64,000 nt of DNA from Botryllus schlosseri. Its lineage: Eukaryota. Shown here one piece after another: positions 33,501-64,000 of this stretch (positions within the stretch are counted from its first letter, which is position 1; the number at the start of each line of letters is the position of its first letter). A program made the translations under genes and the position numbers. The stretch lies in NCBI GenBank assembly GCA_051294905.1, contig CM119373.1, forward strand, positions 560,001-624,000, written 5' to 3'. The notes below the pieces were generated by a model, which searched no databases, was not told the origin of the DNA, and was given only the letters and a program-made list of their open reading frames with translations.

Positions 33501-33599
33501 TCCAATGACTACGGCCGCGTTGTTTTCTGAGCGGCGTGGTGGTCGTCGATGCCGACGCTTTGAGTGGCCTGCATTGAACAAATATAGTTTATTTAAATC

Positions 33600-37700: not shown

Positions 37701-37803
37701 TAATTAGATAAGGTAATTTTTACCCGTATAGTAAAATGGAGCTCTATATCACCTGGCTAGAATCCTTGTATAGATTGTGTAATTAAATAATTGTGGTGCT
37801 AAA

Positions 37804-39575: not shown

Positions 39576-40067
39576 ATGGATTACATAGAGATCACTAACC
39601 AAATGGTTGGAGAATATGCGCATGAGTTAACTAGAATATATAATGAATTGGATGCCCTGCAAATGGAAAAAGACAACTGTCGTGAACAGATTTTCAAAAA
39701 TACGGCTACGATAATAAAGAGAGCGCTGAAAAACAGACAGCGTCTAAGTTGTCTGGCAATTGCTAAAGATAATAAAAAGGACTTGATGGATGACATCAGA
39801 TATATTCTGTTGGAAATTGAGGGTATGAAGGGGCAGGAACGAGTGATGATATACGAACTCCTGCGTGGATACATATCGTACCATACTGGGTTCGTGGTGC
39901 CAAAAAGTTCGTACAGAACGCGATCAAAAATTATGGAGATTTGGAAAACTAACGAACAAATAAACTGGACTTATGACCCAGAATTTGTGTGGGAAAAAGA
40001 GGAAAGAAGAAAAACGATTTTCTTGGTGATTCCACCGGAGGAAGACAAAGAAAATCAGGGATGTTAA
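39576..40067 (+). CDS. Intronless orphan ORF (~163 aa from ATG), paralog of 37804-38460
   Basis: MDYIEITNQMVGEY...RVMIYELLRG...; a decayed partial duplicate of its 5' end is at ~39389-39457. Confidence 0.55.
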   Translation: MDYIEITNQMVGEYAHELTRIYNELDALQMEKDNCREQIFKNTATIIKRALKNRQRLSCLAIAKDNKKDLMDDIRYILLEIEGMKGQERVMIYELLRGYISYHTGFVVPKSSYRTRSKIMEIWKTNEQINWTYDPEFVWEKEERRKTIFLVIPPEEDKENQGC

Positions 40068-47393: not shown

Positions 47394-47411
47394 AAAAGAA
47401 AGGGGGGAAGG
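47394..47411 (+). promoter_or_regulatory. Candidate polypurine tract (plus-strand primer)
   Basis: AAAAGAAAGGGGGGAAGG, nearly the retroviral A-tract/G6 PPT pattern. Confidence 0.45.
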
Positions 47412-47994
47412 CTGGGATGGAGAGATATATTAAATTGTGTATATACGCGTATTGTATCATAGTATAATACCCACTAAGATAAAAATCCTAAAAAATAAAA
47501 ACCTATTGTGAAAAAAAAATATAAAATGAATTAATCTTGAAATATGTACATAAGATATAAAAACTTACAAAAGAGAAAACTAAAGATAAAGGTTATACGG
47601 AGCATAAAATCATCTTCAAAAAAAAAAAAAACAATAAAAGAATGCCTTTGTGGGGGGCAAGATGTTTCTTTTGCGTTTACTAGGTTGCTTCATTTTGAGC
47701 GCCGTCAGTGGCTGTTTTTTTATTCAGTCCGTGTTGCGCTCAACTGTAAGCTGCCGGAAACTGTTACCGCACGTGATACATGCAGCCGGTTGACCGCAAC
47801 AGCGCTAACATATGAGCTGTATAAAGCATGAACTCGACTTGCTCTGCGTGAAAAAAATACCATAGTAGTTGGACTGGACCTGGGCTTCGCACACTTAGAA
47901 AAATATCCAATCAAGCGAAAGTGGTCGATTTAAACTTTTCTATATGTGCATATTTAAGGTTTATTGCATCGATAACAAACGCTAAAATATTAGT

Positions 47995-48501
47995 ATGTGC
48001 CTGGGCTTGCGTTGCAAAGAACCCGAGACGGAGCACCTAATATCGAAACCTCAAAAAGAGGACTTTATCGATCACGGACTAAAGTCGTTGAAATTTCTCA
48101 TGACAACACAATCGTTAACAGATCATCTTTATGATATATTTAATGACGATTCCAGTCTACGATATCGCTATTGGGAAAGAAATAGCGGCTTCCAAACGTG
48201 CGACAGTGATTGGGCTGGTAAAGAACTCGATGAAAACGAGTGGGAAGATACTTACGCAGGGAGCCTTCATCCTGAAGGACCTCTTCAAATGGCGTTCGCA
48301 GATATCTGCATAAACTGGGTAAAAGCCTTGAAAATGGCGAACCCCGAGTGGGTAGAGATACTAAGTGATGAGAAGACTGAACGTAATCTCGTAAAATGGG
48401 TGATCTTCCCCGAAGTCCAGATTTATGCGTACGCGGAAACGCGTTCACTGTCGCTAGAGGAAGCTGACTGTCACTATATGGCACTGAAAGTATCGAAATA
48501 A
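47995..48501 (+). CDS. Orphan acidic 168-aa ORF, probable accessory gene of the retroelement
   Basis: ATG-initiated, intronless ORF in AT-rich DNA; stop overlaps AATAAA; lies 140 bp upstream of array 1. Confidence 0.5.
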   Translation: MCLGLRCKEPETEHLISKPQKEDFIDHGLKSLKFLMTTQSLTDHLYDIFNDDSSLRYRYWERNSGFQTCDSDWAGKELDENEWEDTYAGSLHPEGPLQMAFADICINWVKALKMANPEWVEILSDEKTERNLVKWVIFPEVQIYAYAETRSLSLEEADCHYMALKVSK

Positions 48502-48640
48502 AGCATTTCGATTCGATAAAATTTATCAAGTGCAGGAATTACGATAGTTAAAAGACCCCCGTATTTATGATAACGAAGATTGTTTGAAATCATAAGAATT
48601 GCGAAATTTTAAATATAAAAATAGGTTTAAAAAACTGGAT

Positions 48641-49088
48641 ATCCGTACCTTGATGTTAGATCCTGGATAAGACGGACAGATTTTCCAAAATGATAAGGAT
48701 AGTATCCACAATAGATGGATGGAGATCCGTACCTTGATGTTAGATCCTGGATAAGACGGACAAATTTTCCAAAACGATTAGGGCAAATATAACAGATGGA
48801 TAGATATCCGTACCTTGATGTTAGATCCTGGATAAGACGGACAGATTTTCCAAAAGTTTAGGGCTACTAATATAATGTACATCCGTACCTTGATGTTAGA
48901 TCCTGGATAAGACGGACAGATTTTCCAAAACGATTAGGGCTAATATAATTAATGTACATCCGTACCTTGATATTAGATCCTGGATAAGACGGACAGATTT
49001 TCCAAAATGTTAAGGACAATATCCACAATGGATATAGATCGGTACCTCGGTGGTAGACCCTGGTGAAAGACCGACAGATATTCCAAAA
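48641..49088. repeat. Array 1: six copies of a 50-bp hairpin-forming repeat separated by 25-34-bp variable linkers
   Basis: ATCCGTACCTTGATGTTAGATCCTGGATAAGACGGACAGATTTTCCAAAA at 48641, 48725, 48806, 48881 and 48958 (0-1 mismatch), plus a diverged copy at 49038-49088. Confidence 0.95.
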
Positions 49089-50824
49089 CGTTTAGGGCAC
49101 TACCATAGCGATTTACAACGTGACTACGTTGTGAATTGCTATGGAACTACATAAGTTGAATAAAAATGAATATTATAACCGGAAATAATAGGCCTATAAC
49201 ATTAGGAATACCTCAGGCCAGTACTGCTAATATAAAGACCTTAGAAAAGTAACCCATGGTTGAATTTGTCCACACATTCGTTTTTCGAAACTGATGTGCC
49301 GATGATTGAGTATGACATTAGAATAAGACCCGCCTTGTATGCACATTCGTTTCACGAAATGGATGTGTCTGACAAGTGCACTTATGGCACCATGATCAGT
49401 ACGTGCATGCAAATTATTGTATTTTGGCAACGTTACGATAACAAATGACGCAGTATTCTGATATGTGTGTATTTAATGTCCTCCCTGTGCGCATTGAGTG
49501 TATCTACAACTTATATGACAAGAAGAGCGTCTCAAAAACATGCCAATGATTTAATGACCTGCTCTCAATAAGACCATAAGACTGAATGAAGTGATGAAAT
49601 GGCATGAGAGTATCGATATGAACTGGACATTCTGTTGGCATTAATGAACGGCTTGGCGGTACCAACTCTAAAATTACTATTCGACAGTCCCGCAAAACTG
49701 CTCCCCTCGATAGAATCTAGGGCTTAATGAAGTCAAATGAACGAGATGAGAAGAAATCCGGCACCATGAATCACTGCTCAGCAAGGACCAGCGAACCAAA
49801 GGTTGGAACGTGCCAAACAATGCCCGCAAGAAGTCGCGTTGAAGACAGCGGAGAAAAGAGGCGATCAAGACGGCTGCAAAATCAAGAAGAGATACGCAGA
49901 AGGATCGTTTCATCAGCAAGGGAGTTGAAGAAATCGGGTTCGAAATAGATGCACAAGACAAAGTACCCAAGCGTACAGTTGCCAAATACGTCCTTTACAT
50001 ACGATGATGGAGGTCGGAGAGGGTGCGTTTGGCGAACAACGACATGAATCTATCTGCGGCATGATGACGAGACGCGTGAGTCATAACAGGACATTGATAT
50101 TTTCACGTGATGGTTACTTTGATGTATTATTGTATAGTGACGCCATTTTGTTCAAGCGCGGCCTTTACTGTATCTTTGATCAATACCATCAGGTTGCTTT
50201 AAAATGGCGCTAACATTTTATGTCGTAGATATGTGTATGGGTTAGTGAACATTTAATATGTGAATAATTGGTTGTTACTACAGTAATATGATAGCGAATA
50301 CTATGCCTGTAGGCTTTACTTAGGCGTTATACACCGACCACGCCCTATGTTAGTGTCGGGACCCTTCACCCTAGCGGGATAGAAGCTTAGGATTAGAAAT
50401 GGTTAGGGATTTCTTCAGAAAACCCGTAAAAGGGACCCTGGGTATCTAACAGTGTTCGAATAAGCAACACCTTTGTTAAGGGTAGTATCATCAAGTGCAC
50501 TTTAATTGGCATATGGCCATGTTAATCGGGTCAACGATACAAAGTCCTTAATGTTGGAACCTCCCGGAGTTACGCGTTATAACTAGCTACGCACCCTTAG
50601 ACTAAGCTAGGAACCTCTACCTTATTGGAGCATGTGTAGAGTTAAAGATTCGTGGTAAATCAGATCTATTATTTGTGAGACACGGTACATACGAATGAAT
50701 AAAAAGCTTATATACACCGATACAAAGGAACCCAGAGATATAACAGATAGTGATTAAAACATTGGATCGTGCATGACTATTGTGATTGAATGGTGTGTCA
50801 TGTAGCGATATGTCATGAATGAAC

Positions 50825-51053
50825 TTTATGGCAGGAAAGGCCGACACATTCATTAGATGTGTAAACTAACCTCGGAGCTGCTTTACGGCAGGACAGGCCG
50901 TCACATGCATTATATGTGTAAACAAACCTATGAGCTATTTTACGGCAGGAAAGGCCGTCACATTATTTATATGTGTTAACAAACCCTGAAAGATACCACT
51001 TCGGCAGGAAAGGCCGTCGCATAGTTTATATGCGAAAACAAACCTTGGAGTAT
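50825..51053. repeat. Array 2: four ~57-60-bp units, each with two adjacent hairpins
   Basis: Consensus tttACGGCaggaaagGCCGT-CACAT(n7)ATGTG-taaacaaacc; units start at about 50825, 50882, 50939 and 50999. Confidence 0.9.
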
Positions 51054-51180
51054 TTAAAATACATTTAATCGTGCATGAATATGAATAGGTTTAAGCTTTA
51101 TCTTGTGTTATAATTGATGGATATTTTATATGCCAATTTAACCGAGTTTTGCTTAGATACCTCATTCTGTCTGCATGATA

Positions 51181-51262
51181 ATGATTGGAGTATTTGGTTG
51201 TATTAAAGGCTTAATTACACGTTATATAAGACTAGTTTAGAACTCTGGACCTAAGGGTCATT
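51181..51262 (+). promoter_or_regulatory. Candidate LTR core promoter (inverted CCAAT, TATA, Inr-like)
   Basis: ATTGG at ~51184, TATATAA at 51223-51229 and TCATT at 51258-51262, about 200 bp upstream of the PBS. Confidence 0.45.
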
Positions 51263-51438
51263 GTCTGATACTGAAAGATACCACTACTGCAACTACTGCT
51301 GCTTCAATCAACACCCACGGACGTCGTCTGGACAATACAGCGCAATAGAAGGTCAACTCCTCACCGCGAAATAATCCGAACCAAGTGTGGACGACTCGCA
51401 TAACAATCGTTATCGGAGCTGCACTATAAAGACATTAT

Positions 51439-51456
51439 TGGAGCCATCGGCGAGAT
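51439..51456 (+). promoter_or_regulatory. Primer-binding site, tRNA-Thr-like
   Basis: TGG-A-GCCATCG-GCGAG-AT has the layout of the reverse complement of CCA, a U discriminator, a 7-nt acceptor strand, a 5-nt T-stem and the T-loop end. The GCGAGAT part matches the T-arm of vertebrate tRNA-Thr(TGT) as I recall it. It lies just upstream of ORF0/gag. Confidence 0.65.
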
Positions 51457-51485
51457 TATTCCGGTGAAAAAACGGTGACCTATTA

Positions 51486-51821
51486 ATGTGCGCGAAGACG
51501 ACCCTCGTGAGAATCGTGCTCGGAGTGACGGTAATCACTTCTGTTATATCTCTGCTAATAACGTTGGCGTCGGTCTACGTACACCTCGTGCCAGTATTCT
51601 TTCCCACGACAAACCCTGAAGGTCTCTCTAACGACGTCACTACAACGGCCGAAGCACTTGCTGTCCCACGTAACGGATTTGCTGTGGCAATCGCCAACGG
51701 AACCGAACCAGTTATCTTCGGAAGGTATTCCGTACCTACAACGCAAGGGCGAGTGATCGAAAACAACACAACCACGTCCGTGCGTAATCTGTTTCGAAAC
51801 GGTACTTCCCATAACCAATAA
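51486..51821 (+). CDS. ORF0: 111-aa predicted type II membrane glycoprotein
   Basis: N-terminal hydrophobic stretch IVLGVTVITSVISLLITLASVYV, then a Thr-rich tail with NGT, NNT, NTT and NGT sequons. Confidence 0.65.
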   Translation: MCAKTTLVRIVLGVTVITSVISLLITLASVYVHLVPVFFPTTNPEGLSNDVTTTAEALAVPRNGFAVAIANGTEPVIFGRYSVPTTQGRVIENNTTTSVRNLFRNGTSHNQ

Positions 51822-51874
51822 AAGGTACGGGACTAAGATTCAGACAATCAACCGTTACATAAAATTTGCGAAAA

Positions 51875-54739
51875 ATGCTAAAATTATTCAAAAAAAGGAA
51901 TAAGTCGTCGAAGGCGGCAGGCGAGCTCGAGCAGGGCATCAAGCTACTGAAAGCAACACAAAAACGCCACGAAGACGTCAGACAACAAGAAAGACAGATG
52001 GCAAAAGACGTGGCTGAACAAACGAAGGTACTAAAAGAAGTCAAATCAACACTGCCCGAGACAATGAAGGGGCTGGAAAAGGCCAAGAAAGAAGTCAGGC
52101 GAGCTCAAGCCGACCTCAAAGCAGTATGCGACGCGACTTCGAAGGTTAGCGGGAAAGTCTCCACTGAAGTCCTCAGTGAGATTCTGAAATCGGAATTTGA
52201 ACTGGGCAAAGCCCATGCCCAAGTGGTTGGAGATAAACCACCACCACCTTCTTCCCTGTCCGTAATGGCTACAACACCTCCCCCGGCGTATGATCCACCC
52301 GTTGGGAAATCGTCCAGGGCAACAGCGCCACTACCCACGTTTACAGTCCAAAAGGGCCTGGATTGCCATACCGTAACTACAGTCTACCCTACGTTGCCCG
52401 GTTCCAAGCCGAGGTCGCTATCAGATTCTCATCCAAAAACGACTCCATGTTTTCCGGTTTGGAATGGAACACGCCCCGAAAGACGAAGGGGGAACCCAGT
52501 CGATACACCCAGTCTATTTCAGCTGAGTAGAACCGGAACAGACACTGGACCAGATTCAGACGAGGACTATGCGCACGCTCGAGAACGGCTCGGAGCATGG
52601 CTCGACGATCAACGAGCAGCCGAAGGAACCCGGACCAGGACACAAGGTGCGGCCAGCACTCCAACAAGGCGCGTTACCTTTCAGGAAGGGAGAACGAACT
52701 ACCGACAAGGCGAAAGCGAAGAGCCCGAAGATTCGGGGGAAGATACTGACGCCCAATTGGACAGACTAGGCAGACAAATAGCGGAGGCACGGGAGGCCAT
52801 TCGGGAAACCACGCGGACGCTTCAGCGGGACTCTGGTCGGCCCAACCCAAGCGAACCCGCAGAGGATATGTCGGACATTGCTGAATACCTCAGATTACCT
52901 CGATACGCATCTACCCCAAGAGAAAGCGAAGGTAGATCGAGACTTCCGCGAGAACAACCGCCAAATGATGCCGTGAACCCGGTGTTGACTACGCCCGAAA
53001 GGTTCCAGTCGGAAAAGGAGATGCTGCAGCTAATGATGGACCCTGGGGATATGCCACTTCTAAAGTGGATGGCTAATACGATGAGACGTATACGACACGG
53101 TGAGGGCGGCACTGATACTGATATCATCCTGGCTAATGCCATGCAGAAGAAGTTGAGAAGTGCGGGTCGCCTCAAACAAGCTAATCAGCTAGGGAATTTC
53201 TTCAACACCAACTCGGGAAATGCAAAATGGGTCTCGGTCATGAAATCATTGTCGCTATCCAACCCGCAAGGCTTGGTAAACAATGAAAAGGTCATCAACG
53301 ATTTCCGAAGGAACTATCAGTGGGAAGACGAACCTCTTCCGCTGTTGAATAGCGCCCTAAAACAACTAGAGATAGATATGGAAGCTGAAATCAAAGAAAA
53401 TCCGGATGGGCTGCGACTCTTCCGCAACCTAAGGCAACGATTACCAGAAGCACTTAGGCTGCTGATGCGGGGATGGGATAGCAGGTCCTGGCAAGAGGTG
53501 GCGGAGGATTTACAGCTGTACTGGAATTCTGAGTTTTTGGATGAACAAGAGGTACGTCCCACCGCTCGAGAGACCAGAAAAACGCGTGAAACAATGTCAC
53601 CCCTACCACCTGTGCACATATATAATGTTCAGCCTACAGGACCCATGATGCACAGTTACCCTACTCACGGGGGTGGAAATGGACGAATAAACACCCCTTC
53701 CCCACCGACTACACCGTCACTTCCAATGGTGCAACCACCCTCACCCCAACAACCTCCGCACATGATCGGGGGGACACCACCCAGACCGTCGGGGAATATG
53801 TCGCCACAGCAGCCCGTCGGCGTCGGGCAAGCGTCGCAGCCACGACGTGGCCCTCCTCGCGGCGCAAAGACCAACCGTTTTCCTACCAATGTAATGAGTG
53901 GAAATAGGTTTGGCAGACAGGGCCCGGCTCCCAGGGCCAAATCTTCCCGAACACAAAATGGGCGCAACGCATCGAATGGACCCAACGTTCCACCAACACG
54001 GAACTCCAGATCTCCTCAAACAAGTCAGGGGCCAAGTACTTCGAACCGGAGACCTCGGATGGTGAATACGCAGGACTCTGGAATTGGCGGGGACAGCCAG
54101 GAAATCACGCCGGCTAGCAGTCAGGAAGCCCTCCGCATCGCGGAGAGCCAAGGTGAGAGGTATAATTTTCTTGGGAACCCCAACATTTTCGCCCCTCTAG
54201 GCTTGTATCTGAACCCCCCTCAGGGGCAGTCCTTATCCGTATGTTATTATTGTAAGGCCCCGGGACACCAATCCCGTAATTGCGTGGCAAAATTCGTGCT
54301 TTGGCTAAATGAGGAGGTGATTGCCAAGGATGATACTTTAGGTTGGGTAGTTCGCAAACGAATACGACCGGTACCTCCGCGCGTAAAGGAGTCCACAAAA
54401 CGCAACTGGGAGCCTTTCCTTGCAAGGAATAACATATTGACGGTCCCGGATCTCGACCGGTACCTTGCCACCCAAGGTTCTCCCTCTCTGACACAGAGAA
54501 CTGCCTTGTGCGAGGCCTATTATGACTCTAGGCCAAAAAACAGAGATAGAACCCACTGGCATGATAGGGACCAATGGGGTCCTCAGGGACCGGCTGTACA
54601 ACCGAACCAGGGCAATAGCCGAGTGGCCTGGACGGAACCGCTATATCGTCGTCCTCCACGTCGCTATGACGCCTCGCACTGGACGGATGAGGAACTTGAA
54701 CAAGGCTTGAGACTCTCAAAAAACGACTGGGGGTGCTGA
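51875..54739 (+). CDS. gag: Gag-like polyprotein (~954 aa from ATG)
   Basis: Basic N-terminus, coiled coil, PPxY late-domain-like PPPAY, helical capsid-like middle, Pro/Arg-rich linker and CCHC knuckle CYYCKAPGHQSRNC. Directly precedes pol. Confidence 0.85.
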   Translation: MLKLFKKRNKSSKAAGELEQGIKLLKATQKRHEDVRQQERQMAKDVAEQTKVLKEVKSTLPETMKGLEKAKKEVRRAQADLKAVCDATSKVSGKVSTEVLSEILKSEFELGKAHAQVVGDKPPPPSSLSVMATTPPPAYDPPVGKSSRATAPLPTFTVQKGLDCHTVTTVYPTLPGSKPRSLSDSHPKTTPCFPVWNGTRPERRRGNPVDTPSLFQLSRTGTDTGPDSDEDYAHARERLGAWLDDQRAAEGTRTRTQGAASTPTRRVTFQEGRTNYRQGESEEPEDSGEDTDAQLDRLGRQIAEAREAIRETTRTLQRDSGRPNPSEPAEDMSDIAEYLRLPRYASTPRESEGRSRLPREQPPNDAVNPVLTTPERFQSEKEMLQLMMDPGDMPLLKWMANTMRRIRHGEGGTDTDIILANAMQKKLRSAGRLKQANQLGNFFNTNSGNAKWVSVMKSLSLSNPQGLVNNEKVINDFRRNYQWEDEPLPLLNSALKQLEIDMEAEIKENPDGLRLFRNLRQRLPEALRLLMRGWDSRSWQEVAEDLQLYWNSEFLDEQEVRPTARETRKTRETMSPLPPVHIYNVQPTGPMMHSYPTHGGGNGRINTPSPPTTPSLPMVQPPSPQQPPHMIGGTPPRPSGNMSPQQPVGVGQASQPRRGPPRGAKTNRFPTNVMSGNRFGRQGPAPRAKSSRTQNGRNASNGPNVPPTRNSRSPQTSQGPSTSNRRPRMVNTQDSGIGGDSQEITPASSQEALRIAESQGERYNFLGNPNIFAPLGLYLNPPQGQSLSVCYYCKAPGHQSRNCVAKFVLWLNEEVIAKDDTLGWVVRKRIRPVPPRVKESTKRNWEPFLARNNILTVPDLDRYLATQGSPSLTQRTALCEAYYDSRPKNRDRTHWHDRDQWGPQGPAVQPNQGNSRVAWTEPLYRRPPRRYDASHWTDEELEQGLRLSKNDWGC

Positions 54740-54761
54740 TTGATCCGGTAAATCAGCTCCC
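54718..54761 (+). promoter_or_regulatory. -1 ribosomal frameshift signal (gag-pol)
   Basis: A_AAA_AAC at 54718-54724 in the gag frame, a 6-nt spacer, then stem GGGuGCUGAUU/AAUCAGCuCCC (54731-54761). Pol is in the -1 frame and open from 54711. Confidence 0.85.
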
Positions 54762-57700
54762 AGACAATTTGTTACCCCAACACGCAAAAACTGTACATAA
54801 TGCTTCTTTACCCCTATTTACATTTCTTGATACACCGGATAACCCACTACAGCCAGACTTTACGGAATTATTCGGCGGTCGGCTCTTGTATTTGGTTGAC
54901 ACCATAACGGGAACTAAATTCTTGGCCGACACGGGAAGCATCCCCAATTTAATAATGAAAAATGATGTAAAAACCATGTATCCCAAGAGCTGGGAGGAAC
55001 GGCAACCCTTAGATATGAAATCACGCGGTATAGGGGGCTCTTCCCACGTTGACTCCTTGGTAATTATTGAATTCGATGGACTACCGGTTCCATTTGCGAC
55101 CGGGAAAGGAGTCCCTCTCAATATTATTGGGTTGAAATGGATTGATCAGGTACAACAATTACCGAACATAGCGACTGAATTTAAAACTCCGTCTAATGCA
55201 AACGAAGAGTTGTCTTTAGTAACACTACATGACGAGATCTCGTGCGATCAACGGGATGGAACCAGAGTCGGAAACAGTCCTTGCAACGCTGCTACCGACG
55301 ATGGGTTGATGGAAGCTGCGAAACAGATAAGCGTCGAGTCGGCGCGCCGGTCATCATCGCCGGCCGTCGCCGCTGGCGCAAGTGTCGAGATGGCAATCGC
55401 CACTGGCGCGGACGACGGGTTGGTAAATACCACTAACGTCGAAAAAAACCTACGGGAAACCCCTAGTGTTGGGACAGGTAGCTCTGCTGGCACTAGGCAA
55501 GAGAGTGTCGGGTCAGGTCGCCCTGCTGGCACTAACCAAAGACGTGTCGAGACAGGAATCCCTGCTGGCACCATTAATGAAGACGTCGAGCGCGGAATCC
55601 CGGCTGACGTAAATAAGGACCTGCACGAGAAAACTGGTCCTGAAAGCTCACGTGGATGCACTTGTTCGAATAACTGTAACAATTCGGCCCAAAGATGCAT
55701 GACGACAGCCACAGTTATGAGTAATTTCCCAAAAGGTTCAAACGAAGCAGCTATTGTCGGTCAACCGGACGCATGTCCAGGCGCATCCGACAAGGAGTCT
55801 GGGGATTTTAAGATGCGCGTCTCCCCAGAAACAGGGCCCCCGGCGGAGAATGAGTCCGTCGGCGTGACGGTAGGTGTGGGCACGCACCGAGCTCAGAGGT
55901 CAGATTGGATAGGTAGGGAATCCCCGCTGACAACGAAGAACCTCGCCCTCTCTCCACCAACACCAAAACCCCGTTTATCACGTGATTCGCATCGGCCGAT
56001 AACTGGTCCTCTTACCACGTACACATTACAACAAGGCACCAGTCCCAGCGTTAAGACGGAACTCGAAAGTCTCTGTGCACAATCGGTAGCACTGGCAAAG
56101 CTTCCATACAAACCTCCTGATCTAACGACCCCGGAAAATACCATCATTGCCGACGAAGTTTGGAAAGCCGTCTATGAGCCTTTCGCAGCTGAACTAGAGG
56201 ACCTGCGTGGCCACTTACGAGCCCCTCAAGCCATGAAGTATAAGTGTGACATAGAACTCAGGGATCCCTCGACTAAGCCTTTTGTTTCTGGACCTTATAA
56301 TCTGAAAGGGGAGGGCCAGGCGAAGGCGTTAAAAGAAGCAGTGGACAACTTCTTGGACCTGGGAATAATTGAGCAAGGATTTGCCGAATGGAAACTGGCC
56401 ATCTTTGTCGTCCCACAAAAAATGAATGAAAGACAGAAGCAGGAGGACGGGTGGAAGCAATCATGGAGAGTCGTACAGAATCTCCAGCCCCTGAACGCTG
56501 CTATAAAGTCAATCGAAGTCCCTCCACCCTTAGTACCAGATGTAAAACAACTCGCCCAGGGAAGAGAAGTGCTCTCCCTGCTGGATTTGAAGAAAGCCTA
56601 TTTCCACATGGATATCACGGAAAGATCCAAGCAATATGTGGGGATAGCAATCAAAGGAATGCACGTAAGATGGCGCAAGATGGTGATGGGATTGAAGACC
56701 GCGGTTGCTCTTTGGAGCGCTAACATGCAAGAATGCGTGGTGAAGCCCATCACGGAAAGGTACCGTCAACACATGAAGCAAAATGGCCGATCGGATGAGG
56801 AGAATGCGACGCCTATGGAGGCCTACATAGACGACATTTTCCTTAGCACAAAAACGGTAGAGGACCATTTGCTTCTCCTACGACTGGTATTTGAACAACT
56901 TGCAAAAATGAAATTGACGCTCAGCATCAATAAATGCTTTATTGGAAAACGGAGAGTAAATCTGCTGGGAGCGACCCTGACGGGGAAAGAGATCGAGGTG
57001 CAGCCCGAGAGAATAAGGGCGCTGCGAGAGCTCTCACCACCCCGAAATATATATGAATTACGGGGATGGATCGGCGCTCTACGCTACATCTCGGAGCACA
57101 TCCCAGAGTTGAGCTTGAAGTTGGCAAAATTTGATGCACTAACGGGAAAAGTCCCAGCGACTCGAGGTAAAATGACACCGGTACTTTGGACCGAAGAATT
57201 AATGCAGGACTACAAGACAGCTCAAGCCGCACTCGACAGTACCAAGGTACTGTATCATCTGGATTCAGGACTTCCCATTTTCGTGGAAACTGATGCATCA
57301 GATGTAGGGTTTGGCTCCGTAATTTTTCAAACGGATGTGGGGGAAAAACCCCCTTTCAAGGAGGTGTATCCGGTCGCTTACTACAGTCAAAAGTGGGTAA
57401 CCCCGACGGCTAAAGCCTATGACCCATGCACCAAAGAGCTTAAAGCCCTGAAGGATTCAGTGGAGAAATGGCAGTCGATGCTGCGCGCCTTACCCTTCAC
57501 TATAATTACTGACAACATGGGAGTTTTTGGACTCCTGAAAAGAATGACAGATGAGGCAAAAAACCCGAGCCCAAAGCCATTGATTCAAAGGTGGCTAAAT
57601 CATCTCTCCGGATTCCAGATAAAAGAGGTAATCCATTTGAGCACGTTCCAAGTGTTTACTTCAGATGGATTGTCCCGATCCTATTGGATGGAAATGGCTG

Positions 57701-58266
57701 CTAGAGATGATGACCCTCATGTCTGGGCCACCCTCCCGGGACACAAAGAATCTCAACAAGAGAAAATACAGCGAACCCTGATGTTCCACTGTCGGCACGA
57801 GTATTGCGCAAACTCTGTCGATGGATACCACCCCTGGGAAGAAGTTCGCGGAATAATCAAAGACAAGCTGCGACAAGACCTCGGGATAACTGAAATCGAG
57901 GATATCATGGCCAATTGCGACAGGGCAGTGATGTCCAGTGAAGGCCTGGCTGCAGCGCACGGGCACACCAAAGGGATGCCACCTCCGTACGAAGAGTACC
58001 TGGGCGATGACATGCTGTATCACATAACGACGGATGAAGGTGCCCGTCAAATCATTGATACCCAACTACACAGAATGAACCGACGGTTCATCCATTTGAG
58101 TAAGATTAACACAACGAAAGCACGTGGGCGTAGAACGGTTCTGAGAATGAGGGCGAGCGACCTCAGAAGGATAGGTCTACGACTCTTACAGTCGCATAAT
58201 CACGAGGTAATACTGTGCGAAGGGCCAATACCGTCAGAGTATATACTGATGGAAAACCTGGCCTAG
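54733..58266 (+). CDS. pol: Pol: aspartic protease, long low-complexity linker, reverse transcriptase, RNase H and a C-terminal Tpt1/KptA-like domain; no integrase
   Basis: FLADTGS (PR); LLDLKKAYFH, MVMGLK and AYIDD (Ty3/Gypsy-like RT); VETDASDVGFG, KELKAL, IITDN and DGLSR (RNase H); CRH...HGHT...LYHIT...MNRRFIHLS...IPSEYI (Tpt1-like). Confidence 0.92.
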   Translation: MLIDPVNQLPDNLLPQHAKTVHNASLPLFTFLDTPDNPLQPDFTELFGGRLLYLVDTITGTKFLADTGSIPNLIMKNDVKTMYPKSWEERQPLDMKSRGIGGSSHVDSLVIIEFDGLPVPFATGKGVPLNIIGLKWIDQVQQLPNIATEFKTPSNANEELSLVTLHDEISCDQRDGTRVGNSPCNAATDDGLMEAAKQISVESARRSSSPAVAAGASVEMAIATGADDGLVNTTNVEKNLRETPSVGTGSSAGTRQESVGSGRPAGTNQRRVETGIPAGTINEDVERGIPADVNKDLHEKTGPESSRGCTCSNNCNNSAQRCMTTATVMSNFPKGSNEAAIVGQPDACPGASDKESGDFKMRVSPETGPPAENESVGVTVGVGTHRAQRSDWIGRESPLTTKNLALSPPTPKPRLSRDSHRPITGPLTTYTLQQGTSPSVKTELESLCAQSVALAKLPYKPPDLTTPENTIIADEVWKAVYEPFAAELEDLRGHLRAPQAMKYKCDIELRDPSTKPFVSGPYNLKGEGQAKALKEAVDNFLDLGIIEQGFAEWKLAIFVVPQKMNERQKQEDGWKQSWRVVQNLQPLNAAIKSIEVPPPLVPDVKQLAQGREVLSLLDLKKAYFHMDITERSKQYVGIAIKGMHVRWRKMVMGLKTAVALWSANMQECVVKPITERYRQHMKQNGRSDEENATPMEAYIDDIFLSTKTVEDHLLLLRLVFEQLAKMKLTLSINKCFIGKRRVNLLGATLTGKEIEVQPERIRALRELSPPRNIYELRGWIGALRYISEHIPELSLKLAKFDALTGKVPATRGKMTPVLWTEELMQDYKTAQAALDSTKVLYHLDSGLPIFVETDASDVGFGSVIFQTDVGEKPPFKEVYPVAYYSQKWVTPTAKAYDPCTKELKALKDSVEKWQSMLRALPFTIITDNMGVFGLLKRMTDEAKNPSPKPLIQRWLNHLSGFQIKEVIHLSTFQVFTSDGLSRSYWMEMAARDDDPHVWATLPGHKESQQEKIQRTLMFHCRHEYCANSVDGYHPWEEVRGIIKDKLRQDLGITEIEDIMANCDRAVMSSEGLAAAHGHTKGMPPPYEEYLGDDMLYHITTDEGARQIIDTQLHRMNRRFIHLSKINTTKARGRRTVLRMRASDLRRIGLRLLQSHNHEVILCEGPIPSEYILMENLA

Positions 58267-58353
58267 GATGCGGGGTGACGCAGCCGTCGAGATTTAACTG
58301 CTGGGAAGTGGTCGATCGTTAAAGGAACTTGTACTTTTTTATTTACTTTTCAG

Positions 58354-59315
58354 ACTCCTTCGTCGAGGATTACAATGTGCTGCGATTGGTGGAAATGGGG
58401 GCCTTACCCCATACACGCGATTGCATCCCTTTTTTAAGAAGCCGGGGTCTACTGAGAAAACAAATGATATGCAGAAAATGCTCAAGATGGATGAAGGAAG
58501 AACGGACTACCGAGAGAATTTCGGACGGATGGAGATGGAGGTGCTCTCCTTGTAAAACCACTGCTACTATCCGCAAGTACTCGTTTTTTTCAAAAAGCAA
58601 ACTTGGGTTACCCCAGCTGCTAGTATTAAGTTATTTTTGGGCCCAAGACTCTCTACAAATTCAAATGGCCCATGAGGCCGAGATCAGCGCACGTACGACG
58701 GTAGAATGGTCTGGACAACTGCGCAAGATATGCTCTGCTTACATACAAAGACGTAAACGGAAATTAGGCGGGGTTGGCCGAACTGTAATCCTGGACGAAA
58801 CTCACTTGGCCAAACGGAAGCGGGCAGCTGGTAGCGGCCAACAAGCAGTGAAGGCTGTCTGGGCTTTCGGTGGCCTGGACCGAGGTACCGGTGACATGTT
58901 TGTGGAGATCACATCTGACCGAACAGCGGACGTTCTGAAAAGACTTATAATTAAGAATGTAGCCAGAGGTTCGACCATTCTGACAGATGGCTATCCATCG
59001 TATAAGGGCATTGAAAGTTGGGGGCAGGGCTATAAACATGGATCAGTTGACCACGCCACCACGTTCAAATCTGCCCAAGGCGTTCATACCAATGATTTGG
59101 AGGCATGTTGGGGCTCGCTGAAATATCATTTACACAGGTCGAGGGGTTTAGCACGCCATTTACTAGCCGATTACGTGGGGGAGTGGCTTTGGAAGAGAAG
59201 ATACCCCCGTAAAAAAAGGTTTGGGGCTCTGTTGAGAACGATATCGCTTGACCCACGGTATTGCAATGACGACCCTAGTGATCAGATCCCTGACGCACAA
59301 GGTGATTCTCATTAA
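58354..59315 (+). CDS. IS1595/ISXO2-family (Merlin-type) DDE transposase, probably expressed from a spliced RNA (first in-frame ATG 58395)
   Basis: Zn ribbon CRKC...WRCSPC, RKYSFFSKSKL, catalytic ILDET / ILTDGYPSY / HTNDLEACW, H..VDH and Y..EWLWK. Preceded by the acceptor tttttttatttacttttcag ending at 58353. Confidence 0.9.
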
Positions 59316-59431
59316 AGCCCAGAGAAGCCTTTAGCAACAAAGAAAGGAAGTTAACAACAGACCGGACAATGTATGTTTCTATTTTTTTGCAGACAATAAT
59401 TAAATCATATTCAATATAAGATAATAAGCTT

Positions 59432-59572
59432 ATGCATTGGGGACCGACGCCTATACCGTCTCAATGGACTACGCTATTTATATTCTGCCTGTCGTTATTG
59501 GTTTCAGTTGCACACCTGATTGCTTGTTGTCTGAGGCGGCGGGCTTCGTGCCGAGATCCGGAGATACTGTAG
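59432..59572 (+). CDS. 46-aa single-pass membrane peptide overlapping the env start (not in ORF track)
   Basis: First ATG after the acceptor at 59392: MHWGPTPIPSQWTTLFIFCLSLLVSVAHLIACCLRRRASCRDPEIL*. Confidence 0.4.
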   Translation: MHWGPTPIPSQWTTLFIFCLSLLVSVAHLIACCLRRRASCRDPEIL

Positions 59573-62046
59573 CAAGCAGGGCCCGAACCTTTACTCAGGG
59601 TACACTGGGTGAATTCAACGGCTCACTACCTGACGACTGGGTTCGGCTAAATGATACGCAATGGGAAACCTACGACCTGATGAGTGCTTTCAATAAGACA
59701 GGGAAACGTCATGTGTACAGGCGACCAACACTGTTTCATAGTGAATCTTTTGGTTACGTGGTGGCCGAACGGGTGTCATTGCAGCAAATGGCGTTCCCAC
59801 AAGGGCGATATTGGTCGAATGTACGGGACTTTGAACGGACCTGCTTATGCCAACGAAAACTAGGCCAAATTTCGCCAAACCTAACCTTTACCGTTCTTGA
59901 CCAGGAAACTGTGTTCGTACGCCCAATAGGACATGGGGTCAGGATACGGTGGTTTTGGGACGAGACCTGGGAAACGTCTAGGCAGAAATGGAGGGCTGGG
60001 GCTGAAGTGGACGAGTGGTCCCATGTGAACGATACCTTAATGGCAATGACCAAATTCAAGTTGATCATGTTACGAGCCTTCGCGGGGTTCTCAGCGGTGA
60101 GATCGACTTGTAGGACAGAGCGCATGACAAAAGATACATGGAACTGGACTCAGGTTGATCGATGGAATAAATATAACGCCAGTAGCTCGAGCATTGCGCA
60201 TTGTTGGCCGAGTAACGTGCTTTGGGCCGGAACATATTCAATAACCTACGACTGGAAGACTCGCACGGCAGACAAACGCCTGGTGTCGTCAACGCCAGAT
60301 TCACGCGGCACCTGTGTTTTTTGTGATATCACAGGGATAATTTCTGCTTTAGAACCGAGCCAAGCAGACATAATAATACAAGAAATAGATACCATTCGTG
60401 CGGAATCCGCATGGGAACGTAAGTGGCATCCTATGCAAAACTGCCGAGCTACGTCAGGACTGATCACCCAGGAAAACTATGAACACCTTTGGCAGGTCGT
60501 CCATCACTCACCAACCTTATCCGGTAAGGGCCTACGCAACATCGTGCATCCTCCATCATGTAATTTTTGGCCGACGCAGAACAAGAGTAAGTGGGGGGAC
60601 TTGCCCACCTCGAATTTTCCTCGAAGGATTAGATGGATACAGGCGTCCTTATCGAACTGGAAGGGTCAAGATGACCAAGGGCTTGGTTGGGATAACTTGT
60701 TCGACGGACCTGCCGAAAAACCAGCCGCACCCAACGACATACTGCCTATTTGGCGAAAGCACCCCTCTTTGGTTGCGGATGATCCTAGGTGTCAGGAACG
60801 GATAAGTGGTAGCGACTGTCAAGATCCGGTCGGGGGCCCTCAGTTGAAGGCGGCCTTTTGGGATCAGGTGCACTTCGACCCTGAGCGTAACCGACCCCGT
60901 TTTCCGGGAGGTCCTATAGAAATAAAAGGAGACATCGCACATAATAATAGGAGGATTGGGGGGAAACGTAGACGTAAACGATTCCTCTTCGGCCTACTGG
61001 CACTAATCTTTGCCGTCGTGTCAGTTGTCGCTGTTGTCGCAACTGTATCTTCCCAACTGCATAAAGAAACTGAGGACCTGAGTCATCAAATCAACGACAG
61101 AATGATCCAGGCTACGGAGAGATCAACCGAACTAGGGAAAAAGATAAACGAACTCTCCCAAATCCAAACAGCGCAACAACAAAAGCTGGACCGATTGGTT
61201 GAAAACATGGAGGTAAGAGCATCACTGACGGACAGACGATTGGTGTGGATGCAGAAAATGGTGGAGAAAAACCGACAAATGATATTGCGGCAGGCTACCA
61301 TCACCCTCGCTCAGTTTCAAAGTTTCACAGAGGTGAGCGACGCTGAACTTGCCGTCGACCGCTTGGTCATGAAAGAATTAGCTAATTTGACCGGAAAGTC
61401 CATATTCGATTCGAGTAAGGTCTATCTTACACAGATTCGGAAAGGGACATTGCAGGTGCGGGAGCATGCTCAGCAGTTATCCGCCTATAAAGATACGTAT
61501 GTAAATGAGACAAACGACATCAGTAGTAAACTCCGAGCCAACAGGCTTCGTCTGAACCAGGCTCAAGAAGAAGTGGATCTCAGTATACAGGTATGGAAGG
61601 AAGACCTGAACCGGAGTGTGTTCGTAAATATCTCCGACTGGCGCTACGAGAATGTGTCAGTAGCCCCCTTCGAGTTTGCTGGGGGGGAAGAATTTATGAA
61701 GAACTTTGGCAAAACGATAGAAGAGATGGCGAACGGTGCCGGAAGTCTGATAGAATCGGTCGGAAACGGTGCCGGTAACCTCCTACAAAAGGGACTTGGA
61801 GCAATCGGAGGTCTGTTTGGAAGTGGACTGAGTGGCATTTTTTCGGGCCTCGGATCCATCCTCCTCCCCTTGGGACTTGTACTGGGTGCGGTGATTATCT
61901 TATTCTGTTGTGTCAGGTATCACAGCCTATGCTGTCCCAAGTTAAAATCTAGCGTACAAAGGCGGAACACTAACGCCCAACTTGCAATGTATATAACGTC
62001 GACACCATCTTACACCGTAAAGCCCAGGCCCATAGTGCGACGGTAA
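59464..62046 (+). CDS. env: Envelope fusion glycoprotein (class-I-like)
   Basis: Signal-like N-terminus MDYAIYILPVVIGFSC, many N-glycosylation sequons, furin site KRRRKR (60964-60981), fusion peptide FLFGLLALIFAVVSVVAVV, heptad repeats, Gly-rich pre-TM region, TM ILLPLGLVLGAVIILF and a Cys-Cys tail. Confidence 0.88.
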   Translation: MDYAIYILPVVIGFSCTPDCLLSEAAGFVPRSGDTVASRARTFTQGTLGEFNGSLPDDWVRLNDTQWETYDLMSAFNKTGKRHVYRRPTLFHSESFGYVVAERVSLQQMAFPQGRYWSNVRDFERTCLCQRKLGQISPNLTFTVLDQETVFVRPIGHGVRIRWFWDETWETSRQKWRAGAEVDEWSHVNDTLMAMTKFKLIMLRAFAGFSAVRSTCRTERMTKDTWNWTQVDRWNKYNASSSSIAHCWPSNVLWAGTYSITYDWKTRTADKRLVSSTPDSRGTCVFCDITGIISALEPSQADIIIQEIDTIRAESAWERKWHPMQNCRATSGLITQENYEHLWQVVHHSPTLSGKGLRNIVHPPSCNFWPTQNKSKWGDLPTSNFPRRIRWIQASLSNWKGQDDQGLGWDNLFDGPAEKPAAPNDILPIWRKHPSLVADDPRCQERISGSDCQDPVGGPQLKAAFWDQVHFDPERNRPRFPGGPIEIKGDIAHNNRRIGGKRRRKRFLFGLLALIFAVVSVVAVVATVSSQLHKETEDLSHQINDRMIQATERSTELGKKINELSQIQTAQQQKLDRLVENMEVRASLTDRRLVWMQKMVEKNRQMILRQATITLAQFQSFTEVSDAELAVDRLVMKELANLTGKSIFDSSKVYLTQIRKGTLQVREHAQQLSAYKDTYVNETNDISSKLRANRLRLNQAQEEVDLSIQVWKEDLNRSVFVNISDWRYENVSVAPFEFAGGEEFMKNFGKTIEEMANGAGSLIESVGNGAGNLLQKGLGAIGGLFGSGLSGIFSGLGSILLPLGLVLGAVIILFCCVRYHSLCCPKLKSSVQRRNTNAQLAMYITSTPSYTVKPRPIVRR

Positions 62047-62128
62047 CCAATCTCCGACGAAGCTCTCTTAACCCTCATGCTTAACTAAACACAACTATAT
62101 GAATTACAGATTTTCACGTTAAACTAAT

Positions 62129-64000
62129 ATGCCAATAATTAACTACCTGTACAAATGGAAAGGACTACAAAGATTGCTGCTGTTAATCCCGTGGGCTTGT
62201 TTTGTGAAAACCCAAACTGGCGAAAACCTACTACCCTTATCTGCCATGACCGTGGGGTCCGTCGACGACTTTAATTTTACGGGATGGATACTTTTCGACG
62301 TCCCACCAAAGCCGCAAAGAGTTCCGTTGTCACGGCTTTTTATATTAGGAGGGGACTGGCCTCGAAGGGACATTCGACGTCACTATCAGATACAGGTTGA
62401 CGACTCGGCGTTTGGTCCGTTGAAAGCCGCACCGCAAAGTTTATACAAATTACTGACACCCATATCATCCATAGGATCCCAAAACGCCAGGTATTGGAAT
62501 GAAACCTGGGCGTATGAACGGGAGTGTGTGTGCAGAAGGACTGAGTCGTGGATATCGCCGGATCTGAACCCTGCGGACTACTATACTCAAAAAATAAAGT
62601 ACCGACGTGACGGCAGACTGGGAGTGATACATCTCTGGAGGTACGTAGAAACCCGAGTCTTGCATTCTCTACCCCTCGAGACATTACAACGACTAACCGT
62701 ATATAAGACAATGATCATAAATTTATTGGAACAATATGAAACAGTGGAAGCAAATTGTCGCTATCAGTTCGGGCGTCATATAGGATGGGATATCGGACAG
62801 AATAGATTCAGCCATTGTGTTGCTCACAAAAAACGTCGAAGTAGAGTGATGTGTATAGAGTGCTACTTCATGGGGGAGCAACCGGTTGAGAATTTCTTGC
62901 CCCTAGATTTTGTAATACAGGAAGTCGATCCCGGTATTATTGGGAACCCGCCGGATAAGCGGAGAACCTTTTCTAGCAATCAATGGCCCGACAGAGCTCC
63001 TCTGCCGAAGATAAGCGAGAATCTGGTATGGCTACAAGCAAGGAACGAGACATATTCGGAACATTGGCATGTGATGTTCGACGGACGAAAAACCGATACG
63101 GCATTCCTACGCACGATGGCGAAACCCCAACCTTCAGGCATGGCAATGTATGACTCTTACCCAGTTCTTTTGCATAATAGATCGCGGTGCGGACTAAAGG
63201 AAAATAGACAAGTTTGTTCAACGGCTGTTGGAGATCTCAAAACAGCCTTACTATTCAATAGAGTATTATTCGACCCTTTCGAGGGGCAGGCCGTGTTTGC
63301 GGACCCTCGGCAAGGTGCAATGCAAATTGCTGCCCCTGAAAACCGAACGCGGACGGAAATACTTTTACCAACCCTGGGTAACCAAACTTCCTGCTTGATT
63401 TCAAAAGGGTGGGAAACGTTCATACTATCCCCGTCTCGAGAGACACCCGATGGAAATGGACGGGGGGGTATCAAAACCTGGCTATCCCGTCTTGGGGTAC
63501 AATACGCAGAAGAGACAAAGAAACACTTGTCACAACTGAAGGTTCGAATAAGGGGAGGCGTAGAAACGCAGCGAGAAAGACCCGTCTCGCGGGGACAACT
63601 TGAGGAGTTATCCGTGAGGTATAACCTTACCCTACGACCGACATTAGTAGAACAAGTAAAATTATTAAATACGATACTTCTGGATTATATGGCCACACAA
63701 AAGCTAATTCAGGCAGAAGTGGGGGACGAAAAGTTATTTCAGTCTCGATGGATCTATCGGGGGACGTTTTGTGAAGGTTCCCTGGTCTATACGCCATATG
63801 CCTATAGGAATAATGCGGGGGAGAGATCCACCGCTCGAACGGTGATATTAACCGCAACTGATGACCGTGGAAACCATCACGCAAGGATCACATGGACCCC
63901 CGAAGTTCCGCAAACTACTTCGATGATGGTGGGCAGTACGAACACAGAAGCTTTGGGAAATGGGCGTGGCGTAACACCAAGTGAAAAAAGGAAACCAACA
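62129..64000 (+). CDS. Second env-SU-like glycoprotein, at least 624 aa, 3'-partial (absent from ORF track because no stop in window)
   Basis: Open from ATG 62129 to the window end. Signal-like LQRLLLLIPWACFV. RYWNETWAYERECVCRR aligns with env RYWSNVRDFERTCLCQR, and YPVLLHNRSRCGLKENRQVCSTAVGDLKTALLFNRVLFDP aligns with env HPSLVADDPRCQERISGSDCQDPVGGPQLKAAFWDQVHFDP. Confidence 0.85.
   Translation, partial: MPIINYLYKWKGLQRLLLLIPWACFVKTQTGENLLPLSAMTVGSVDDFNFTGWILFDVPPKPQRVPLSRLFILGGDWPRRDIRRHYQIQVDDSAFGPLKAAPQSLYKLLTPISSIGSQNARYWNETWAYERECVCRRTESWISPDLNPADYYTQKIKYRRDGRLGVIHLWRYVETRVLHSLPLETLQRLTVYKTMIINLLEQYETVEANCRYQFGRHIGWDIGQNRFSHCVAHKKRRSRVMCIECYFMGEQPVENFLPLDFVIQEVDPGIIGNPPDKRRTFSSNQWPDRAPLPKISENLVWLQARNETYSEHWHVMFDGRKTDTAFLRTMAKPQPSGMAMYDSYPVLLHNRSRCGLKENRQVCSTAVGDLKTALLFNRVLFDPFEGQAVFADPRQGAMQIAAPENRTRTEILLPTLGNQTSCLISKGWETFILSPSRETPDGNGRGGIKTWLSRLGVQYAEETKKHLSQLKVRIRGGVETQRERPVSRGQLEELSVRYNLTLRPTLVEQVKLLNTILLDYMATQKLIQAEVGDEKLFQSRWIYRGTFCEGSLVYTPYAYRNNAGERSTARTVILTATDDRGNHHARITWTPEVPQTTSMMVGSTNTEALGNGRGVTPSEKRKPT

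What the first reader, a model, noticed from the sequence alone, without database searches (positions are those of the whole stretch)
58267..59400. The transposase looks like a resident spliced gene, not an inserted transposon
Seen: only ~87 nt separate the pol stop from the acceptor and ~115 nt separate the transposase stop from the next ORF, and I find no inverted repeats or duplications there. Strong polypyrimidine-CAG acceptors precede both the transposase (AG 58352-58353) and the env region (AG 59391-59392). Catalytic DET, TDG and NxxE motifs are intact. Inference: retrovirus-style subgenomic spliced mRNAs. A Pol-transposase fusion would need a phase-1 donor in pol.
Basis: partly seen in the sequence, partly recalled or inferred. 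Interest (0 to 1): 0.8.

Follow-up and report, generated by a model that had tools for sequence, protein, structure and literature searches.

The report
Retrovirus-like element with transposon ends
The transposase belongs to a 38-kb virus-like mobile element, probably in a sea squirt, that has capsid, reverse transcriptase and envelope-like genes but no integrase and no long terminal repeats; it is inserted like a cut-and-paste DNA transposon, a mix of the two great classes of jumping genes that I found in no paper.

Summary
Observation confirmed; interpretation right in essence but the fusion partner is Gag, not Pol. The IS1595/Merlin transposase is a fixed gene of a 38,232-bp element (window 27526 to C3:625757) carrying gag, an integrase-less PR-RT-RH-Tpt1 pol, the transposase and two env-like ORFs. 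No LTRs. The whole element has imperfect GG..CC inverted ends and an 8-bp target duplication (22 of 24 elements exact). The phase-1 acceptor is kept in 33 of 33 copies and the ORF has no conserved start before it. A frozen phase-1 donor in gag (54153) predicts a 1079-aa Gag-transposase. In 42 of 51 copies the order is permuted (transposase-env first, gag-pol last), so that splice needs the ends joined. The host spliced leader precedes gag, and identity between copies switches exactly there, as expected of strand transfer. Best reading: a reverse-transcribing element with a circular phase that uses a Merlin transposase as integrase. Splice junctions, circles and particles are not shown; RNA reads barely covered the sites. 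The scan had not noted this on other DNA.

The parts
27518..27525 (+). Left copy of the 8-bp target-site duplication (right copy follows the element end at C3:625758-625765, outside the window)
27526..27546 (+). Left terminal inverted repeat, begins GG; 15 of 21 bases match the right end
27526..64000 (+). The element, 38,232 bp; it runs on to G000:C3:625757 (window equivalent 65757), where homology to other copies stops sharply
47986..48501 (+). 171-aa ORF of unknown function; in other copies it is followed by a second transposase with its own Met (tnpB), which this copy lacks
48636..49033 (+). Internal tandem array, 5 x about 81 nt
50824..51053 (+). Internal tandem array, 4 x 57 nt, just upstream of the leader copy
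51184..51208 (+). Copy of the host spliced-leader exon (one extra A here); point at which identity between copies switches
51249..51263 (+). Conserved short hairpin with variable loop about 40 nt after the leader copy (15 of 16 element-type loci, 0 of 5 other leader-bearing loci)
51468..51821 (+). 117-aa ORF with hydrophobic N-terminus; similar ORF in families B and A2; no Pfam match
51875..54739 (+). gag: capsid-fold domain at about 52979-53560, CCHC zinc knuckle at 54242
54150..54158 (+). Conserved phase-1 splice donor in gag (GT at 54153-54154), upstream of the zinc knuckle
54700..58266 (+). pol, overlapping gag in the -1 frame: protease motif DTGS, RT (YIDD), RNase H, C-terminal Tpt1/KptA-like domain; no integrase
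58330..58353 (+). Polypyrimidine tract and CAG acceptor, phase 1
58354..59315 (+). IS1595/Merlin DDE transposase exon (tnpA), CxxC..CxxC finger, DET/TDG/NDLE
59370..59392 (+). Acceptor 71 nt before the env ATG
59464..62046 (+). env-like membrane glycoprotein: N-terminal hydrophobic signal, 14 N-glycosylation sequons in the open frame, basic cleavage motif at 60967 followed by a hydrophobic peptide, long helices, C-terminal membrane segment
62129..64000 (+). orf5, second membrane-protein ORF, weakly similar to the env N-terminal half (24% over 160 aa, E=2e-6); ends at C3:625272

Best explanation
A giant reverse-transcribing, envelope-bearing element that has replaced integrase and LTRs with a Merlin/IS1595 transposase and its terminal inverted repeats. 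SHOWN: the whole element is inserted with the Merlin signature; pol has no integrase; gag, RT, transposase and env are kept together under purifying selection. INFERRED, strong: the transposase is made as a Gag(1-763)-transposase fusion by splicing 54152 to 58354 (4,201-nt intron, in frame, 1079 aa), which keeps the capsid domain, drops the zinc knuckle and pol, and would carry the enzyme into the particle as Gag-Pol carries integrase. INFERRED, moderate: the expressed template is a circle with right and left ends joined, on which the order is always leader-gag-pol-transposase-env-orf5. The genomic RNA starts at the spliced leader and ends at a second copy of it, which serves as the terminal redundancy for strand transfer. 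The new DNA is integrated by the transposase at the joined ends. The same ends can also be moved as ordinary DNA transposons, as the short derivatives suggest.
For: Exact 8-bp TSD in 22 of 24 elements, one mismatch in 2. No integrase in pol here or in three outside relatives. Capsid fold: 14 of the top 16 VIA-align rows are retroviral or retrotransposon capsids, best Z 6.6, rmsd 2.9 over 87 residues. dN/dS RT 0.03 (one pair), transposase 0.05-0.13, env 0.21-0.29. Acceptor fixed in 33 of 33 while the N-terminal coding region varies synonymously; no conserved phase-1 ATG exon between left end and acceptor in 24 B-order loci. Donor codons CAA-GGT-GAG frozen in 19, 18 and 19 of 19 rows while nearby Gly, Gln, Glu, Ala and Pro codons vary; GGT also in 5 of 5 family-D rows and a marine-metagenome relative; the one loss is in a gag-protease-only deletion family. 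Order: 42 of 51 transposase-first, 7 pol-transposase, 2 without RT; the pol-transposase order occurs in two subclades, one of them sister (100/99) to a transposase-first element. Exact leader 22-mer 4-7 kb upstream of RT in 22 of 27 copies in the listed range (read by eye). Identity switches at the leader in 6 of 10 chosen pairs, in both directions (97/75, 96/61, 96/62, 97/71, 93/73, 56/99).
Against: No spliced read at either acceptor; raw RNA depth there was 0-1.2, and contigs of two runs of uncertain type cross the env acceptor unspliced. No joined right-left junction in the assembly. A 38-80 kb RNA genome would be at or above the largest retroelements cited (30-40 kb, PMC10175614 passages). 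Nine short derivatives (3.5-33 kb) on C2-C5 have the ends but no RT, no transposase and no exact leader copy in the lists; four of them were checked and have exact TSDs, so DNA-level movement occurs. No primer-binding site or polyadenylation signal at the leader was identified. The codon CTT six positions after the donor is also invariant. The pairs showing a switch at the leader were picked after seeing the matrix and are not independent. Capsid Z-scores are under the tool's trust level; env has no family match and its model is poor. Family D lacks a uniform acceptor (1 of 2 loci) though it keeps the GT.
Confidence: 0.62

Rival explanations
1. A giant Merlin DNA transposon that moves only by cut-and-paste and carries a captured gag-pol-env module; the module makes particles or serves the element in some other way, but the 38-kb unit never passes through RNA.
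For: Merlin ends and 8-bp TSD on all elements; many RT-less, leader-less derivatives have spread; large size; a second transposase with its own Met in many copies.
Against: RT dN/dS 0.03 and RT more conserved than the transposase; breakpoints at the leader; donor and acceptor on opposite sides of the ends in 42 of 51 copies; a family of about 14 copies keeps an open gag with RT deleted, as RNA-packaged parasites do (the comparison is recalled).
Confidence: 0.22
2. The Gag-transposase message is made from integrated linear copies by back-splicing or by trans-splicing between two transcripts; no DNA circle is needed.
For: Donor downstream of acceptor is the geometry of back-splicing; the host has trans-splicing machinery; no joined ends in the assembly.
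Against: The circle of RNA would be 11-79 kb and uncapped; this does not explain the permuted order or the switches at the leader.
Confidence: 0.08
3. Both acceptors take the host spliced leader in trans; the transposase starts at the conserved Met before the first CxxC (58464) and there is no fusion.
For: Likely true for env, whose acceptor precedes its own ATG.
Against: About 35 codons between acceptor and Met are conserved as protein with synonymous change; phase and spacing are fixed in 33 of 33; homologues start near the Tyr; the frozen gag donor is left unexplained.
Confidence: 0.05
4. One reading: a Pol-transposase fusion, or a Merlin recently inserted into an LTR provirus.
For: Position right after pol, where integrase normally lies.
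Against: No strong phase-1 donor in pol; no TIR/TSD around the ORF; no LTR pair; element transposases lie in a clade (99/97) apart from a free Merlin of the same genome.
Confidence: 0.03

Closest known systems
Merlin / IS1595 DNA transposons (PMC8101967, passages read)
   Same: DDE_Tnp_IS1595 transposase, ends starting 5'-GG, 8-bp TSD; highly imperfect TIRs are reported for one family.
   Different: Here 23-80 kb, with gag, RT, env-like genes, often two transposases; the main transposase has no start of its own and a donor in gag.
Teratorn (piggyBac-herpesvirus composite; PMC10175614 and PMC6431247, passages read)
   Same: Virus-like gene set bounded by the ends of a cut-and-paste transposon whose transposase is a resident gene; circular intermediate proposed; ends relocated by recombination.
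   Different: Partner is a reverse-transcribing element, not a DNA virus; transposase is Merlin, and appears spliced onto Gag.
Env-bearing Ty3/Gypsy elements (Metaviridae), incl. Oikopleura Tor (PMC4402516, passages) and planarian Burro (PMC6431247, passages)
   Same: gag with capsid fold and zinc knuckle, -1 overlap with PR-RT-RH pol, env-like gene behind a splice acceptor, large size (Burro).
   Different: No integrase, no LTRs, 8-bp TSD and TIRs; RT only 22-25% identical to integrase-bearing relatives; Tpt1/KptA domain ends pol.
Caulimoviridae (pararetroviruses; features recalled)
   Same: PR-RT-RH without integrase; circular DNA template and terminally redundant RNA in my model; best PDB sequence match of the RT is 8r0s 'Enzymatic polyprotein' (E 2.6e-15; that this is cauliflower mosaic virus is recalled), close to Ty3 and foamy virus matches.
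   Different: Animal host, env-like genes, precise transposase-made insertions, far larger.
Kuafuorterviruses (PMC11673190, parts 1-2 of 3 read)
   Same: Divergent animal reverse-transcribing lineage.
   Different: They have LTRs, integrase, 5-6 kb and an xADD motif; here YIDD.

Membership tests
Merlin/IS1595 transposons | DDE_Tnp_IS1595 transposase with intact DDE motif | tested here: met
Merlin/IS1595 transposons | 8-9 bp TSD | tested here: met
   22 of 24 exact 8 bp
Merlin/IS1595 transposons | TIRs with terminal 5'-GG | tested here: met
   GG..CC in all 24; imperfect, 12-15 of 21 in family A
Merlin/IS1595 transposons | Single transposase gene, no retroelement genes | tested here: not met
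Merlin/IS1595 transposons | Movement by DNA cut-and-paste | not testable with these tools
   suggested for short derivatives only
Ty3/Gypsy LTR retrotransposons (Metaviridae) | Gag with capsid fold | tested here: met
   14 of top 16 rows capsids, Z 5.2-6.6, modest; Foldseek top two rows Arc, E 0.7-0.9
Ty3/Gypsy LTR retrotransposons (Metaviridae) | PR-RT-RH order | tested here: met
   protease by motif only
Ty3/Gypsy LTR retrotransposons (Metaviridae) | Integrase at the end of pol | tested here: not met
   Tpt1/KptA instead
Ty3/Gypsy LTR retrotransposons (Metaviridae) | Flanking LTRs | tested here: not met
Ty3/Gypsy LTR retrotransposons (Metaviridae) | tRNA primer-binding site and polypurine tract | not tested
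   no host tRNA set was compared
Ty3/Gypsy LTR retrotransposons (Metaviridae) | RT nests in the clade | not tested
   no RT tree with references; only distant matches
Kuafuorterviruses | LTRs, integrase, xADD motif | tested here: not met
Caulimoviridae | Pol without integrase | tested here: met
Caulimoviridae | Movement protein, about 8-kb genome (recalled) | tested here: not met
   no such Pfam match among the ORFs scanned; 38 kb
Caulimoviridae | Circular DNA replication form | not testable with these tools
   assembly has no joined ends; reads not searched for junctions
Teratorn-like composites | Virus gene set bounded by transposon ends with TSD | tested here: met
Teratorn-like composites | piggyBac transposase and herpesvirus core genes | tested here: not met
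Class I viral fusion glycoprotein (env) | Signal, basic cleavage site, fusion peptide, heptad helices, membrane anchor; fold | tested here: inconclusive
   motifs present; feature search lists spike, Fusion_gly and haemagglutinin clusters at 0.88-0.90 with low recognition; model pLDDT 39, fold search uninformative

The most novel reading that the evidence does not exclude
A new lineage of animal reverse-transcribing viruses with 25-80 kb genomes that have no integrase and no LTRs. They package a Merlin transposase as a spliced Gag fusion, use the host spliced leader as the strand-transfer repeat, and integrate as a permuted form whose transposase gene, in most copies, is split by the element's own ends and so is complete only after circularisation.
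Probability: 0.5. Interest if true: 0.96.

Novelty: categorically new. Interest (0 to 1): 0.88.

Why it matters
It joins class I and class II mobile elements in one long-lived unit: about 50 near-complete copies in several families, with transposases 56-100% identical and some sister copies 99-100% identical. It would show that a retro-type particle can swap integrase for an unrelated DDE enzyme and drop LTRs, and that a host spliced leader can act as the R repeat. It would be a reverse-transcribing counterpart of Teratorn, with genome sizes beyond known retroelements. LTR-based and integrase-based screens would miss it. Relatives of the RT-RH-Tpt1 pol at 40-47% identity exist in other assemblies, so the lineage is not confined to this genome. 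The key predictions are single PCR or read-junction tests. 'Not in print' rests on the library searches; Repbase reports and most subscription journals were not searchable.

Tried and rejected
LTR search between window and 40 kb downstream: none. TIR/TSD around the ORF: none. Phase-1 donor in pol: none strong. Small first exon inside the left end of B-order elements: no conserved candidate in 24 loci. The 87-nt pol-acceptor spacer is not a recognisable remnant of the B-type ends (scores within shuffles). Integrated right-left junction: 0 matches. RNA: no RNA holder listed; four runs laid on 49100-64000 gave no joint at 54152, 58354 or 59393, with raw depth near zero there; not evidence either way. 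Env fold: single-sequence model poor, viral fold search meaningless; one close env homologue only. Relatives with genomic context outside this genome: one metagenome contig that ends inside pol, nothing in viral contigs, one weak 27-residue match in a bacterial bin; so linkage of RT and transposase elsewhere is untested. Ends of family A2 not located. tRNA genes and Rfam families in the element: none. Kuafuorterviruses rejected. The tree used 46 rows; one free Merlin locus (L096) was missed by the script, and 30 of 150 outside hits were included. No supplements were read; the Merlin survey's supplementary tables could hold a related entry.

Full report
WHAT IS THERE. The window lies in a 495-Mb animal assembly, probably a sea squirt: the leader sequence below matches the 'Chordata 1' spliced leader (PMC3795323, one passage) and unchecked earlier notes say the same. 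Five long ORFs run on + from 51863: gag, pol, an IS1595/Merlin transposase, and two membrane-protein ORFs. Pfam finds RT, RNase H and a Tpt1/KptA domain in pol but no integrase; the Tpt1 match is backed by PDB sequences (E 5e-4) and by outside relatives above the curated cut-off. A model of the central Gag domain (pLDDT 71, six-row alignment) ranks retroviral and retrotransposon capsids in 14 of the top 16 rows, though at Z 5.2-6.6 only.

THE ENDS. There is no LTR pair. Homology to other copies stops sharply at C3:625757. The eight bases after that point recur at window 27518-27525, directly before an imperfect inverted copy of the end. I paired left and right ends by coordinates and fetched 23 more elements. 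10 of 11 family-A-type elements and 11 of 12 script-read B-type elements have an exact 8-bp duplication, the other two one mismatch; a 13th B element, missed by the pattern, is exact by eye. GG ends and 8-9 bp TSDs define Merlin (PMC8101967, passages).

RESIDENT AND SELECTED. The transposase has 121 matches in the genome. Env follows it directly in 29 of the best 30 loci and also in the distant family D. 50 of 54 RT copies at 84% or more have it within 90 kb. dN/dS is 0.05-0.13 for the transposase, 0.21-0.29 for env and 0.03 for RT (8, 8 and 1 unsaturated pairs). Element transposases fall in one clade with a few outside proteins (99/97), apart from a free Merlin of the same genome; tnpA and the Met-bearing tnpB are separate subclades.

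THE SPLICE. The CAG lies 17 nt before the conserved Tyr/His codon, in phase 1, in 33 of 33 tnpA loci down to 56% identity. The following codons are conserved as protein, and no Met is shared before codon 37; tnpB and outside homologues have a Met at about this point. An upstream coding exon is therefore needed. From leader to transposase the only donor of 6 bits or more is in gag at 54153, in families A, B and A2. Its three codons are frozen in 19, 18 and 19 of 19 rows while neighbouring synonymous sites vary, and the GT persists in family D and a metagenome relative. The single loss is in a family that kept gag and protease but lost RT and transposase. Joining 54152 to 58354 is in frame: 1079 aa. 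This is inference from conservation. RNA reads did not test it: four runs gave almost no raw coverage of the genes and no joint at these sites, and two contigs cross the env acceptor unspliced.

THE PERMUTATION. Only 7 of 51 tnpA copies follow pol. In 42 the element reads left end, about 290 bp, acceptor, transposase, env, orf5, 11-79 kb to RT, pol stop, about 260 bp, right end. There the donor lies far downstream of the acceptor, and no substitute exon is conserved in the left end. With the ends joined, the order becomes gag-pol-transposase-env, as in the window, with an intron of similar size (about 4.7 kb by my sum). The right-end cassettes of A and B are homologous (score 96-116 against shuffle maxima of 38-46); the left ends only weakly. 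The pol-transposase order occurs in two subclades, so the ends appear to have moved more than once, although the ends of A2 were not found. No joined ends are in the assembly, as expected if circles are transient, but this is also no support.

THE LEADER. Reads beginning with the template-switch oligo align at 51183-51216 and run on into other mRNAs (71 and 224 reads): this is the host spliced leader. An exact 22-mer of it lies 4-7 kb upstream of RT in 22 of 27 copies within the listed range, including families at 60% RT identity. Flanks diverge, the leader does not. In 6 of 10 pairs examined in blocks, identity changes abruptly at the leader, in either direction. That is what template switching between two packaged RNAs at a terminal repeat would leave. 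Leader copies also sit inside apparent LTRs of another element (L078, L079). Caution: the genome has 614 leader-like matches, and unchecked earlier notes describe leader-headed and leader-targeting LINEs and SINEs. Here the downstream side stays homologous, with a conserved hairpin (15 of 16 loci), which argues against such insertions, but DNA recombination at a short shared repeat is not excluded.

AGAINST AND OPEN. Short derivatives with the same ends and exact TSDs lack RT, transposase and an exact leader, so the ends also move at DNA level. An RNA of 38-80 kb would be exceptional. No primer site was identified. Env is a fusion protein by motifs and a weak feature match only. Linkage of RT and transposase outside this genome is untested.

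COMPARISON. It is not a member of Metaviridae or Kuafuorterviruses (no integrase, no LTRs). It meets the end and enzyme criteria of Merlin but not the single-gene plan. It works most like Teratorn, with a reverse-transcribing partner, and, if the circle model holds, like a pararetrovirus that has gained precise integration. Ten library searches (listings seen, passages read for PMC6431247, PMC10175614, PMC8101967, PMC4402516, PMC3795323, parts 1-2 of PMC11673190) showed no description of such an element.

VERDICT. Real, multi-copy and conserved. Anatomy and Merlin-type insertion about 0.95; Gag-transposase splice about 0.8; full circular, leader-primed retro cycle about 0.55-0.6.

Noticed in passing
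window 57730-58263: Tpt1/KptA (RNA 2'-phosphotransferase, NAD-using fold) fused to the end of a retro pol, kept in all families and in outside relatives P0001 and P0003; function unknown, perhaps RNA-end repair or ADP-ribosylation.
   Followed up: partly
L088-L091; absent from window after 48501: A second Merlin transposase (tnpB) with its own Met lies upstream of the leader in many copies; possibly a nuclear excision enzyme beside the particle-borne one.
   Followed up: partly
L055, L056, L065-L067 and L031:2480-2660: Right-end cassette holds a conserved AP-1/Maf-like palindrome and a second conserved motif; could drive transcription across joined ends (motif name recalled).
   Followed up: no
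G000 C6:4.99 Mb, C4:17.57 Mb, C2:35.73 Mb, C8:26.98 Mb and about ten more; L124: A family with leader, open 954-aa gag and protease, but RT, transposase and most env deleted; the one copy read has lost the gag donor.
   Followed up: partly
L069, L071, L081: The leader copy is followed by a repeat of its last 11 bases in three loci.
   Followed up: no
L078-L080, L082: Small element with two identical repeats 1.8 kb apart that contain the spliced leader and are followed by a TGG-starting site: probable LTR element with the leader at the start of R.
   Followed up: no
window 59393-59400 and 29 loci: The first bases after the env acceptor follow a fixed pattern with a stop codon at positions 5-7; no matching donor found.
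   Followed up: partly
window 46784-47260: About 477-bp insertion present in this copy and absent from sister copies.
   Followed up: no
L009 / L066, G000:C16:20.63-20.66 Mb: A B-type element is inserted, with an exact 8-bp duplication, inside the gag gene of a family-D element on the opposite strand.
   Followed up: partly
window 37783-38460 and 39555-40067: Two ORFs (225 and 170 aa) inside the element that seem to share a motif; no Pfam match.
   Followed up: no
L031:6235-6942 (-) and L034:8694-9377 (-): Host pentraxin/laminin-G exons downstream of the element.
   Followed up: no
window 1-25000: Host region dense in 35-44 nt minisatellites and dispersed 130-200 nt repeats in both orientations.
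   Followed up: no
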